A stretch of 64,000 nt of DNA from Promethearchaeota archaeon (GCA_019057795.1 JAHLWS010000056.1:1-64000); one strand, 5' to 3'. Shown: positions 30,912 to 33,626, counted from the stretch's first letter. The notes: a model not told the origin generated them from the sequence alone. Numbers and translations are program-made.

Positions 30912-31235
30912 CACCTGAGATATATACCCACCTTTTTGTTCTATTTCTCGTCGCCAAGAAATAGGTGGGGCATCAAACTAAGCGGCCTACCTAAAACTCG
31001 TTCCAAATACTCATCGCTTTCATTTGGCCTTGCACCAAGGTTTTAGCTCGTTCCAACCGTTCCCGATTACAATTTCTCTGGCTTAAATCCAAGTCATTAA
31101 TGTACGTAAAAGGGCAGTGCCGTTTCAGTTGCTAAAATACGATTTTCACCGTAGTAGTTATCTACTCCTTGCTTGGAAAGTGAGGTGAGGTTCCTCAGCA
31201 GTTCAATGACTACCGTCAGCCCCATATTTCATGTG
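30912..31235 (-). ncRNA. rnpB: Archaeal RNase P RNA (type A-like)
   Basis: On the minus strand: P2 UGGGGC/GCCCCA; P4 GAGGAACCUCACC pairing with AACAAAAAGGUGGGU; GCAACUGAAAC; GGUGCAAGGCCAAAU; GGUAGGCCGCUUAG; P9 with GAAA loop; P19 with GCGA loop; P1 CACAUGAAAUAU/AUAUCUCAGGUG. Confidence 0.93.
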
Positions 31236-31441
31236 ATTTTCTTTTTTTCGCTTTTTACTTTCCAATTAATACATAGTTCCATAACTATTTATAATTTAAG
31301 GTTATCTTGCAACGGTGTTATTTACAAAATTAAAAATACTTTTGAATTTAAAGCTCAATCTATATATCACTGGGATTGTTTTTTATAGAGAATAAAAAAA
31401 AAGTTATTAATTATTTTATTTATTTGTTAGAATGTCTTGAA

Positions 31442-33626
31442 CTAGGATAGAGCAAGTAAGTTTCCAAGCAACCCAGCTCCGCCATTGAACATTAGAAGTA
31501 AACCCATGAAAATCGAAGCTGTCAACGACATCACTACTAACAGCGTGTTTATACTTGGTCCTGCGGTGTCCTTTCATCGATAATTGGTTTTCAATACCAA
31601 AGACCTTAAATGGGTCACCGACCGTATCTCCCGTTATACTAGCTTTATGTACTTCAGTCCCTTTTCCTCCAAGGTTACCGTCCTCTATCCATTTCTTTGC
31701 GTTATCCCATGCCCCACTTATGCTTTTTGCTCGAAATAAGCTATAATCTGCATTGGACATAAACACTGCAAACACAAATCCGGATAAGATAGCTCCAGCT
31801 AAGAATGCTACTAAGGAAGCTACGCCAAAAAGAATTCCAACACCAATAGGAACAGTTATAGAAATAATGCTTGGTATAATTAACTCACGTAGTGAGCCTT
31901 TTGTTGCAATATCAATTGTTTTATGGAAATCAGCGGGTTCTTCACCAGTTAATATTTTTGGATTTTCTTCAAATTGCCTACGAATTTCATCGACCATCTT
32001 CGCTGCGTTTCTTTGGACAGCTAAGACTAACAACGCTGAAAATAGCGCTGGGATAACAACTCCTATAAAGGCACCTACTAGAACATTGACGCTTAATAAA
32101 TCCACAACAGTAATACCAGCCTCTTCTGCAAAGGAAAACATTAAAGCCATGACGGTTAAGTTCGCAGCTCCAATTGCGAATCCCTTTGTAATTGCTTTGG
32201 CGGTGTTACCAGCAGAATCTAATTTATCAGCAGTTCTAATTACTTCATCACCTAATTCTCCTTGTTCTGCAATAGCTCTTGCATTGTCAACGATTGGGCC
32301 ATACGCATCATTTGTTACTATTGTTCCTACAATTGCTAACATTCCAACAGCAGCCATTGCTACACCAAATACACCAGCTAACCAAAATGCAATTGTCATA
32401 GCAAGTATAACTCCTATTGCAGGAGGAACTACACTTAGAAGTCCATATGAGAAACCAGAAAGAATTACAACTGCATGACCTTCTTTAGCAGCATGAGCTA
32501 TGTTTTGTACTGGTTTCCTATCATCCCGAGTAAAATAATCACTCGTAAAACCTAAAACTATACCAGATATAAGTCCAATCACTGATGTGCCCCATATTCG
32601 CCATAATAACCACATTTCATCGTCTCCTAATCCAATTGATAGGAAAATCGTTATTACAGCGGATAATGCAAAATAGATTAAAGTTGCTAAATAAGTTCCT
32701 GTGTTTAAAGCTTTTCCAGGTTCTTCAGAACCTTTATATTTTATTATGTATATTCCTATAAGCGAAGCAATTAGCCCTACGCCGCAAAAAACAACTGGAG
32801 CAACAATAAATACAGAGGTTCCTATAGTTGTTAATGTTACATTTGCGAAAGGTGCTTTAATAATACCTGCTACACCAAAGGCTGCTGCAAGCATCATTGC
32901 TGCAACAATGGATGCAACATAAGAATCGAATAGGTCACTGCCCATTCCAGCTATGTCACCAACATTATCACCTACATTATCAGCGATCGTTGCTGGATTT
33001 CTTGGATCATCTTCAGGTAGATTGTATTCAGCTTTTCCTACTAAATCAGCACCTACATCTGCTGTTTTCGTAAAAATTCCACCGCCACACTTCATAAATA
33101 AAGCTATACTACTGGCACCGAAGCTAAACCCTAACACAACAAGAGGAGACTGAAAAATCCAATAGATTATTGATACGCCTATTAAAGCAACTCCCACCAC
33201 GGCTAAACCCATTACTGCTCCTCCAAAAAATGCTACATCGAAACCGGCTTTTGTGCCCTTGGTACAACCTTGTGCTGCTCTCGTATTTGCTTTAACACCA
33301 ACATACATCCCTAACCAACCTGCGAGCATAGAACCCACACAACCAATTAAGTACGCTATCGCTTGTTCCCAATTTAATGTCCCAGGATTCGTCATATTAG
33401 GAAGTAAGAATAACATTACTAAAAAAAGTACTCCTACAAAGATTCCAAGAACTTTATATTGGACTTTTAAGTATGTTTTAGCCCCTTCTTCGATATATCC
33501 AGCGACTTCTTGCATTCTTTCGTTGCCAGGATCTTCTTTTAAAACTAAAGATCTAAAGTATACAGCAAGAACGATTGAAATTATCCCTGCGATTAGTGCA
33601 ACAATTAAAATTATTGGCACTGCCAT
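31442..33626 (-). CDS. hppA: Membrane-bound H+-translocating pyrophosphatase (K+-independent type); predicted spliced CDS complement(join(31442..31572,31607..31717,31748..33626)), 706 aa
   Basis: ADVGADLVGKAE, EDDPRN, DNVGDNVGD, GNTAKA (Lys indicates K+-independent). Removing the two inserts restores AGGAWDNAKK, GDTVGDPFKDTAGPS and a final TM helix ending in TAG at 31442-31444. Confidence 0.95.
31573..31606 (-). other. Putative BHB-type mRNA intron 2 (34 nt, frameshifting) in hppA
   Basis: Central helix CAUU/GAUG, bulges UA^A and AA^A, exon helix CGGUGACC/GGACACCG, intron helices GGU/AUC and UUGGU/ACCAA. Confidence 0.85.
31718..31747 (-). other. Putative BHB-type mRNA intron 1 (30 nt, in frame) in hppA
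   Basis: Central helix AUGC/GCAU, bulges AG^A and AA^G, exon helix AUGUCCA/UGG(G)GCAU, intron helices UU/AA and GCUU/GAGC. Confidence 0.85.

What the first reader, a model, noticed from the sequence alone, without database searches (positions are those of the whole stretch)
31718..31747. hppA intron 1: in-frame 30-nt insert with an unambiguous BHB junction
The mRNA reads ...AUGUCCA AUGC AG^A UUAUAGCUU AUUUC GAGCAAAAA GCAU AA^G UGGGGCAU. The central helix AUGC/GCAU is fully Watson-Crick. There is no terminal redundancy, so the 30-nt deletion restoring the conserved Gly-Gly has a single placement, and it matches the BHB cut sites. That is independent agreement between protein conservation and RNA structure. 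Because the insert is in frame and stop-free, ORF-based annotation misses it; unspliced mRNA would add 10 aa to the WDNAKK substrate-binding region.
Basis: seen in the sequence. Interest (0 to 1): 0.88.

Follow-up and report, generated by a model that had tools for sequence, protein, structure and literature searches.

The report
tRNA-type mini-intron in Asgard hppA
The only membrane pyrophosphatase gene of this Loki-type Asgard archaeon is interrupted, inside its catalytic motif, by a 30-base insert shaped like a tRNA intron; comparison with relatives indicates it is cut out of the messenger RNA, which published work documents for hardly any archaeal protein gene.

Summary
Window 31718-31747 (minus strand) is a 30-nt in-frame insert in hppA, between the two glycines of NAGGAWDNAKK. 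It has one possible placement. It is absent from 19 orthologues and from 160 other species genomes of the class.

Six other public assemblies carry a 30-nt insert at the same site, always together with a second, frameshifting insert (31573-31606). Four lines of evidence support a bulge-helix-bulge (BHB) intron:
- The cut sites set by the protein alignment fall after the second base of two 3-nt bulges around a 4-bp helix. The chance rate is about 1e-4.
- Four base pairs covary across lineages.
- The exon-exon helix is complete only in insert-bearing alleles.
- The insert's codons evolve almost neutrally, while flanks and the downstream exon in the spliced frame are under strong purifying selection.

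The genome encodes two EndA paralogues and RtcB.

Weak points: no RNA contig covered the site, the BHB is not the minimum-energy fold, and the outer pair of the central helix is missing in three of six distinct alleles.

The most likely reading is EndA/RtcB splicing of the mRNA, confidence about 0.85. This scan has reported the same kind of intron before on other DNA, in this genome and in other Asgard genomes. In print the nearest case is cbf5 of Crenarchaeota.

The parts
31442..33626 (-). hppA (membrane-integral pyrophosphatase, PF03030 family). As spliced it comprises exon 1 (33626-31748), exon 2 (31717-31607) and exon 3 (31572-31442, including TAG), giving 706 aa. The unspliced read-through ORF is 31416-33626, 736 aa.
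   Evidence: Searches give the ORF and the spliced length. Searches show homologues carrying PF03030 and matches to PDB 8b37, 4av3 and 4a01. One search finds it as the single copy in the genome.
31718..31747 (-). Intron 1: a 30-nt, in-frame, stop-free BHB mini-intron between the first and second base of the first Gly codon of GGAWDNAKK.
31750..31753 (-). H2a: the 5' strand (AUGC, exon 1) of the 4-bp central helix.
   Evidence: In one search, column pair 21-52 covaries U-A <-> C-G.
31720..31723 (-). H2b: the 3' strand (GCAU, intron) of the central helix.
31747..31749 (-). 5' bulge AG^A. The cut is predicted between 31748 and 31747.
   Evidence: The same bulge position is seen in all seven alleles.
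31717..31719 (-). 3' bulge AA^G. The cut is predicted between 31718 and 31717.
31724..31746 (-). Intron hairpin (H3/h'). The arms are 31746-31738 and 31732-31724; the pentaloop is 31737-31733.
   Evidence: One search shows three pairs with compensatory changes (columns 28-48, 32-44, 34-42). RNAalifold finds the distal stem on its own.
31754..31761 (-). H1a: exon-1 strand of the outer exon-exon helix (Met-Ser-Asn codons).
   Evidence: 7 of 7 pairs in all six distinct intron-bearing alleles, against a mean of 4.6 of 7 in 19 intronless alleles.
31708..31716 (-). H1b: exon-2 strand of the outer helix (Gly-Gly-Ala-Trp codons), with one bulged G at 31712.
31573..31606 (-). Intron 2: a 34-nt frameshifting BHB mini-intron inside GDPFK|DTAGPS. 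An AAGG repeat allows five placements. Only this one gives a 4-bp central helix (CAUU/GAUG) in all six distinct alleles and a Lys codon in each.

Best explanation
Window 31718-31747 is an archaeal bulge-helix-bulge (tRNA-type) intron inside the coding sequence of hppA. It is one of two such introns in this gene.

The proposed mechanism has three steps:
1. The pre-mRNA folds so that exon 1 (AUGUCCA-AUGC) pairs with the intron's 3' end (GCAU) and with exon 2 (UGGGGCAU). This presents two 3-nt bulges separated by a 4-bp helix.
2. The tRNA-splicing endonuclease EndA cuts after the second base of each bulge. The genome has two paralogues, one with and one without the catalytic His, which suggests an (alpha-beta)2-like enzyme.
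3. RtcB joins the exons, restoring ...SNA-GG-AWDNAKK....

Intron 2 (31573-31606) is removed the same way and restores the frame for DTAGPSINTL... and the last transmembrane helix.

What is shown: the DNA anatomy, the coincidence of protein-defined junctions with BHB cut sites, structural covariation, exon-flank co-evolution with intron presence, purifying selection on the spliced frame, and the presence of the enzymes.

What is inferred: the actual cleavage and ligation in vivo, and which enzymes perform it.
For: 1. Nineteen orthologues lack exactly these 30 nt, and removal restores the invariant Gly-Gly with one possible placement.
2. That placement is the BHB cut pair. The background rate of the geometry at fixed sites is 1.2e-4. 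Clear tRNA introns of this genome (tRNA-Thr, tRNA-Ser-GGA, tRNA-Ala) score the same way with the same routine.
3. Six further public assemblies carry a 30-nt insert at the same site: four JGI contigs, plus an NCBI MAG and another JGI contig. Together with the window they make six distinct sequences in at least four lineages.
4. On their alignment, 88.9% of cells pair, against 34-50% when partners are slid. Four pairs change on both sides, including U-A <-> C-G in the central helix. The covariation score is 0.321 against 0.200 +/- 0.025 for shuffles, with 0 of 500 shuffles reaching it. RNAalifold recovers the core helices unaided.
5. The exon-exon helix H1 is complete (7 of 7 pairs) in all six distinct intron alleles and in only 1 of 19 intronless alleles (mean 4.6). 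For intron 2 the figures are 5.8 of 6 against 4.3 of 6.
6. The insert's codons have pN 0.24-0.52 and pN/pS 0.4-1.8. Flanking codons have pN 0.00-0.06 at pS 0.44-0.91.
7. Exon 3, read in the frame that exists only after removal of insert 2, has pN 0.09 and pS 0.86 between the window and L038. The interrupted gene is therefore kept functional across lineages.
8. It is the only hppA in the genome.
9. Two EndA paralogues and RtcB are present.
10. Solved PPases have a gap at this site.
Against: - There is no RNA evidence. The RNA contigs laid end at 31804 or further upstream, so none bridges the site.
- The BHB is not the minimum-energy fold. It lies 2 kcal/mol above the MFE in the window, 3-5 in L038/L039 and 8 in L034.
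- The outer pair of the central helix is A.A (L035/L036) or A.G (L034/L037), so only three of six distinct alleles have 4 of 4 pairs.
- The insert is 30 nt, in frame and stop-free in all six distinct alleles, and K-S is conserved in the read-through peptide. This is what one would also expect of a translated loop.
- H1 is exonic, so its conservation is confounded with coding constraint, and relatedness inflates the statistics.
Confidence: 0.85

Rival explanations
1. The 30 nt are translated. On this view they encode a lineage-specific 10-residue loop before GGAWDNAKK, and are not an intron (or are only partly spliced).
For: The insert is in frame, stop-free and exactly 30 nt in all six distinct alleles. 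The read-through peptides share D..(S)...(R).KS.
Against: - pN inside the insert is 5-10 times that of the flanks, and pN/pS is about 0.4-1.8.
- The residues that look conserved are encoded by the conserved paired strands (GAG.AAAAAG).
- The substitutions are compensatory for RNA pairing.
- Exon synonymous sites co-evolve with the insert's presence.
- 117 of the 120 database proteins listed (119 of them carry the WDNAKK motif; the 120th, P0055, lacks it), the 19 orthologues and the three solved structure families have no residues at this site.
- The same alleles carry a frameshifting insert 2 that must be removed at the RNA level anyway.
Confidence: 0.05
2. The gene is a decaying pseudogene hit by two small insertions, or the inserts are assembly artefacts.
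For: Only this species representative among 161 genomes of the class has the insert. Read literally, the gene has a wrong C-terminus.
Against: - The same two inserts occur in six independent assemblies from other samples.
- Lineages that diverged to saturation at synonymous sites keep exon 3 under purifying selection in the spliced frame, pN 0.09-0.19 against pS 0.74-0.88.
- It is the single hppA copy in a genome estimated 100% complete.
Confidence: 0.03
3. The insert is skipped or removed by another route. Candidates are translational bypassing (as in T4 gene 60), a different RNase with another ligase, or a self-cleaving element.
For: Nothing was tested at the RNA level. The BHB is not the MFE fold.
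Against: - There are no matching take-off and landing codons at insert 1. At insert 2 of L039 the Lys codon must be assembled across the junction, which a hop cannot do.
- The intron starts AU and ends AA, so it is not GU..AG. At 30 nt it is far too short for group I or group II introns.
- No Rfam family matches here.
- The conserved geometry is precisely that of the EndA substrate.
Confidence: 0.05

Closest known systems
BHB intron in the cbf5 (pseudouridine synthase) pre-mRNA of Crenarchaeota (Watanabe et al. 2002, from memory; Yokobori et al. 2009, PMC2738675)
   Same: - A short intron inside an archaeal protein-coding sequence.
- It is defined by a bulge-helix-bulge built partly from exon sequence.
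- Removal is attributed to the tRNA-splicing endonuclease and ligase.
- Distribution among relatives is patchy, with gain and loss.
   Different: - The host is an Asgard (Promethearchaeota / Loki-type) archaeon, not a crenarchaeon.
- The gene is a bioenergetic membrane enzyme.
- There are two introns in one gene, 111 nt apart, always present or absent together.
- Intron 1 is in frame and stop-free, so gene callers read through it.
- Splicing is not shown experimentally here.
Archaeal tRNA/rRNA BHB introns cut by EndA; broad-specificity (alpha-beta)2 and epsilon2 enzymes (PMC5829648, PMC12397907); the heavily interrupted tRNA genes of Asgard archaea (bioRxiv 10.64898/2026.10.13.758758)
   Same: - Same motif geometry and the same predicted cut positions.
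- Similar intron length: the clear tRNA introns of this genome are 19-30 nt.
- The same enzymes are encoded in the genome.
   Different: - The substrate is an mRNA, with no tRNA body to scaffold the motif.
- The exon half of the motif must also encode an invariant catalytic peptide.
IRE1/RtcB splicing of XBP1/HAC1 mRNA in eukaryotes (general knowledge; mentioned in PMC13149111)
   Same: - Spliceosome-independent removal of a very short intron from an mRNA.
- A structure-specific endonuclease cuts and an RtcB-type ligase joins.
- Removal changes the reading frame, as at intron 2.
   Different: - A different endonuclease and a different RNA motif (twin stem-loops, not a BHB).
- Regulated by stress in eukaryotes; there is no evidence of regulation here.

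Membership tests
Archaeal BHB (EndA-type) intron | [quoted passage not shown] | tested here: met
   Window: AUGC/GCAU pairs 4 of 4, with bulges AG^A and AA^G. L038 and L039 also pair 4 of 4. L035/L036 and L034/L037 pair 3 of 4, with the outer pair A.A or A.G.
Archaeal BHB (EndA-type) intron | The cut sites in the bulges coincide with the exon-intron junctions. | tested here: met
   The junctions were fixed independently by the alignment with 19 intronless orthologues. They fall after the second base of each bulge. The chance rate is 1.2e-4.
Archaeal BHB (EndA-type) intron | Flanking helices h (exon-exon) and h' (intron). | tested here: met
   H1 has 4 bp, a bulged G, then more pairs. H3 is a hairpin with a pentaloop. 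Both are kept in all alleles. H3 has three compensatory pairs. H1 is complete only in intron-bearing alleles.
Archaeal BHB (EndA-type) intron | The genome encodes the splicing endonuclease and an RtcB ligase. | tested here: met
   There are two PF01974 ORFs of 200 and 201 aa. One is closest to the Aeropyrum catalytic subunit 3p1z_B; the other lacks the His. RtcB matches at 561 bits.
Archaeal BHB (EndA-type) intron | The intron is absent from the mature RNA. | tested here: inconclusive
   Three metatranscriptome runs were laid. Their contigs cover 31804-33610 only, and none reaches 31718-31747.
Membrane-integral pyrophosphatase (H_PPase, PF03030) | Full-length similarity, including the GGAWDNAKK and GDTVGDPFKDT motifs. 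| tested here: met
   Homologues carry PF03030. PDB 8b37, 4av3 and 4a01 match at E around 1e-25. Both motifs are restored only after removal of the two inserts.
Spliceosomal or group I/II intron | GU..AG ends with a branch site, or ribozyme domains of hundreds of nt. | tested here: not met
   Intron 1 starts AU and ends AA and is 30 nt long. No Rfam intron family matches in the window.
Programmed translational bypass (T4 gene 60 type) | Matched take-off and landing codons flanking the gap. | tested here: not met
   The junction lies inside a Gly codon (G|GU) with no repeated codon. At insert 2 of L039 the Lys codon is assembled from both sides.

The most novel reading that the evidence does not exclude
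EndA/RtcB splicing of protein-coding messages may be a routine layer of gene expression in Loki-type Asgard archaea, and hppA may show two of its properties.

First, the in-frame intron 1 together with the frameshifting intron 2 lets splicing act as a gate. Only the doubly spliced message yields an active pump, so PPase output could be tuned by EndA activity or by the competing RNA fold.

Second, the strict all-or-none co-occurrence of both introns on a patchy tree may reflect repeated loss through a spliced RNA intermediate (reverse-transcribed cDNA recombining with the gene). That is the mode of intron loss known from eukaryotes.
Probability: 0.2. Interest if true: 0.9.

Novelty: new member of a known kind. 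Interest (0 to 1): 0.74.

Why it matters
In the papers I could search, endonuclease-dependent splicing of an archaeal coding sequence is documented essentially for one gene, cbf5 (PMC2738675). The recent Asgard tRNA-intron census does not treat mRNAs (10.64898/2026.10.13.758758).

Here a central bioenergetic enzyme of a close archaeal relative of eukaryotes can be made only if two mini-introns are removed. One of them is invisible to ORF-based annotation, so database proteins such as P0002 and P0003 carry 10 spurious residues and a false C-terminus.

The case also gives a clean comparative signature that can be used to find more such introns without RNA data: covariation, exon-flank co-evolution, and neutral codons within the insert. 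Together with the other cases this scan reported in Asgard genomes, it bears on how split protein genes and RNA-level repair of reading frames arose before the spliceosome.

Tried and rejected
- **RNA evidence.** The look-up of sequencing runs gave six metatranscriptome runs with small shares. Three were laid with one independent DNA run. The RNA contigs cover only 31804-33610, so nothing can be said about splicing. In DNA run X6 a loose end at 31758 reads as an intronless allele of a relative (AGTAACGCTGGTGGAGCG...), not as a spliced form of this allele.
- **Scan of genome contigs** with the site pattern: 0 hits.
- **Pattern search in 161 genomes of the class:** only G000 matched. **DNA search in 42 genomes of the genus:** only exon flanks matched.
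- **blastn-short of both introns against the whole genome:** no second copy, with best chance hits of 13-17 nt. This gives no sign of a repeated mobile element.
- **ARAGORN on the genome:** only 18 tRNAs, and several implausible intron calls. It was usable only as a three-example positive control.
- **Search for a database protein equal to the spliced product,** which might have been a transcript-derived copy: the best match was 94-95% identical, so none was found.
- **Tree of the 3' 600 nt,** to test whether the introns travel as a cassette with the gene end: distant intron-bearing alleles do not cluster, so there is no support.
- **Single-sequence MFE folding as a test of the BHB:** uninformative (z = 0.35).
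- **Placement d=3 of intron 2,** which I first favoured by hand: rejected because L034 cannot code Lys there. Placement d=1 fits all alleles.

Full report
**What is there**

The window comes from an archaeon. An archaeal RNase P RNA lies at 30912-31235. Database relatives of the gene are labelled Promethearchaeota or Lokiarchaeota. The genome G000 has 4.95 Mb in 87 contigs at 31% G+C.

The ORF 31416-33626 on the minus strand reads through as 736 aa of a membrane-integral pyrophosphatase. It departs from the family in two places. The first is ...FMSNA[DYSLFRAKSI]SGAWDNAKK.... The second is GDPFK followed by an unrelated tail.

**The observation**

I took the orthologous loci from 19 genomes of the same genus or order (73-95% aa identity). 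All 19 read SN(A/S)GG(A/S)WDNAKK and GDPFKDTAGPSINTL with no extra residues.

The DNA alignment shows two clean gaps:
- 30 nt at window 31747..31718
- 34 nt near 31606..31573

For the first gap only one placement gives Gly-Gly. The second has a 4-nt AAGG repeat, which allows five placements.

After removing both inserts the gene is 706 aa and ends ...GLLGNLLALS, like its nearest relatives. It is the only hppA match in a genome estimated 100% complete.

**Is the BHB more than chance?**

With the junctions fixed by the protein alignment, the RNA around insert 1 has these elements:
- a 4-bp central helix, AUGC/GCAU
- 3-nt bulges AG^A and AA^G, with the junctions after the second bulge base
- an exon-exon helix of 4 bp that continues after one bulged G
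- an intron hairpin with a pentaloop

I applied the same rule (H2 4/4, H1 at least 4, H3 at least 2) to 1.4 million position pairs 30 nt apart in this genome. It is met at a rate of 1.2e-4. Three clear tRNA introns of this genome score the same way with the same routine.

Thermodynamics alone does not favour the motif:
- The region's z-score is 0.35.
- The hand-drawn BHB is 7 kcal/mol above the MFE in 71 nt.
- The best BHB-constrained fold is 2 kcal/mol above the MFE in 80 nt.
- The competing fold pairs AUGC with the exonic GCAU of GGGGCAUGG.

**Relatives that carry the insert**

A scan of JGI metagenome contigs for any 20-50-nt insert at this exact site found four contigs, L034 to L037. A protein search whose words covered the read-through peptide found two more, P0002 and P0003. 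Their DNA is L038 (an NCBI MAG) and L039.

All seven alleles, six of them distinct, have a 30-nt insert 1. All also have insert 2, which is 34 nt in the window, L035 and L036, and 31 nt in L034/L037, L038 and L039.

No species representative carries insert 1 among the 41 other genomes of the genus or the 160 other genomes of the class.

**Structure is conserved by compensation**

On the 80-column alignment A1, the BHB I drew from the window gives the following:
- 88.9% of cells pair, against 34-50% when partners are slid by 1-3 columns.
- Four pairs change on both sides.
- The covariation score is 0.321, against 0.200 +/- 0.025 in shuffles. None of 500 shuffles reaches it.

The compensated pairs are:
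- U-A <-> C-G in the central helix. The exon side of this change is the synonymous third base of the Asn codon.
- Three pairs of the intron hairpin (G-C <-> C-G/U-A, U-A <-> C-G, U-A <-> C-G).

RNAalifold was given no structure. It still predicts three pairs of the central helix, the distal hairpin and an exon-exon helix.

One weakness remains. The outer pair of the central helix is A-U only in the window, L038 and L039. It is A.A in L035/L036 and A.G in L034/L037. In L034 the BHB conformer lies 8 kcal/mol above the MFE.

**Exons co-evolve with the intron**

The exon-exon helix can also be scored in intronless genes:

| Helix | Six distinct intron-bearing alleles | 19 intronless alleles |
|---|---|---|
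| Intron 1, 7 pairs | 7 of 7 in all six | mean 4.6; one allele has 7 of 7 |
| Intron 2, 6 pairs | mean 5.8 | mean 4.3 |

Mann-Whitney p values are 2e-4 and 6e-4. They are overstated because the sequences are related.

The concrete pattern is clear. Ser is TCC and the first Gly is GGT in every intron allele, while these codons vary freely in the others. GGTGACCCATT before intron 2 is invariant only in intron alleles.

**The insert is not a selected peptide**

The 10 codons are stop-free in all six distinct alleles, and K-S recurs. However, nonsynonymous divergence inside the insert is 0.24-0.52, with pN/pS of 0.4-1.8. In the 15 flanking codons pN is 0.00-0.06 at pS of 0.44-0.91.

The recurring residues map to the conserved paired strands. 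The other two frames are also poor in stops, so stop-freeness carries little weight.

Three solved PPase families align with a 10-residue gap at this site: Pyrobaculum 8b37, Thermotoga 4av3 and Vigna 4a01. Of the 120 closest database proteins, 117 have the canonical GG; two of the other three are the insert-bearing P0002 and P0003, and P0055 lacks the WDNAKK motif.

**The interrupted gene is functional**

Between the window and L038, L034 or L039, synonymous sites are saturated (pS 0.7-0.86). Exon 3, read in the frame that exists only once insert 2 is removed, has pN of 0.09-0.19. Decay or artefact is therefore excluded, and an RNA-level correction is required.

For insert 2, the placement 31573-31606 gives a 4-bp central helix (CAUU/GAUG) in all six distinct alleles. 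It is also compatible with a Lys codon in each. The intron cores fold into hairpins of unrelated sequence.

**Machinery**

The genome has two EndA-family ORFs:
- One of 200 aa is closest to the catalytic subunit of the Aeropyrum heterotetramer (3p1z_B, E 4e-34). It has the Tyr...His...Lys pattern.
- One of 201 aa lacks the His.

It also has one RtcB. Two paralogues are what the (alpha-beta)2 type would require. According to PMC5829648, that type and the epsilon2 type are the ones that cut non-canonical introns. Subunit roles here are inferred, not tested.

ARAGORN finds only 18 tRNA genes. This fits the report that Asgard tRNA genes are heavily interrupted (10.64898/2026.10.13.758758).

**History**

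On an exon-1 tree the intron-bearing alleles are scattered. Starred branches force at least three changes. Inside a tight clade (93-95% identity), three members have both introns and two have neither. A tree of the 3' 600 nt does not bring distant intron alleles together.

The intron sequences diverge about as much as the exons: intron 1 of the window and L038 share 21 of 30 positions. The simplest reading is an old pair of introns that was lost several times, always both at once. Recombination with intronless alleles cannot be excluded.

**What is missing**

Direct RNA evidence is missing. The metatranscriptome contigs that hold parts of this gene end at 31804 or further upstream.

**Comparison with what is known**

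The closest published case is the cbf5 pre-mRNA intron of Crenarchaeota (PMC2738675). My searches found no paper on such introns in Asgard protein genes. The 2026 review of non-canonical splicing mentions archaea only for tRNA. The library is incomplete, so this is not proof of absence.

Earlier notes of this scan report the same kind of intron in other genes of this genome and in at least 43 genomes, some with RNA support. I did not test those notes and do not count them as evidence.

**Verdict**

This is a new member of a known kind, a BHB intron in an archaeal mRNA. It is unusual in four respects:
- the host lineage
- the host gene
- its in-frame, annotation-invisible form
- its pairing with a second intron

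Noticed in passing
window 31573-31606 (-): A second mini-intron (34 nt, frameshifting) lies inside GDPFK|DTAGPS. Its central helix CAUU/GAUG is invariant in all six distinct alleles, while the hairpin core has an unrelated sequence in each lineage. It is present or absent strictly together with intron 1: 7 of 7 alleles have both and 19 of 19 have neither.
   Followed up: yes
window 31607-31717 (exon 2) compared with L035:6442-6700: Between the window and L035 the two introns differ at 1 of 64 bases, but the 111-nt exon between them differs at 17 (85% identity; pS 0.65 against 0.15 in exon 1). The middle of exon 2 in the window looks more like that of more distant alleles. This suggests short-patch recombination, but it remains unexplained.
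   Followed up: partly
window 30912-31235 (-): An archaeal RNase P RNA (RF00373, 123.5 bits) lies about 200 nt downstream of hppA on the same strand.
   Followed up: no
window 31442-31572 (exon 3) and about 32150-32180: After splicing, the last helix reads DTAGPSINTLLVVM, with Val where many PPases have the gate Lys. The protein also has GNTAKAITKG, the Lys/Thr signature usually linked to K+-independence. Source annotations nevertheless call relatives 'K+-stimulated sodium pump'. Other notes of this scan describe the same lysine-free gate in Asgard PPases.
   Followed up: no
G000 whole genome: ARAGORN detects only 18 tRNA genes in a genome estimated 100% complete, 10 of them with intron calls of mixed quality. 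Most tRNA genes are probably hidden by multiple or non-canonical introns.
   Followed up: partly
P0002 (L038:1501-3651) and P0003 (L039:886-3006): Public protein records of insert-bearing alleles are mis-predicted. They contain the 10 read-through residues and an out-of-frame C-terminal tail of about 40-50 residues.
   Followed up: yes
window 31758, DNA run X6: An independent subsurface metagenome holds contigs that match upstream of 31758 and then continue as an intronless allele with different synonymous codons (AGT AAC GCT GGT GGA). Intron-bearing and intronless relatives may therefore co-occur in one habitat.
   Followed up: partly
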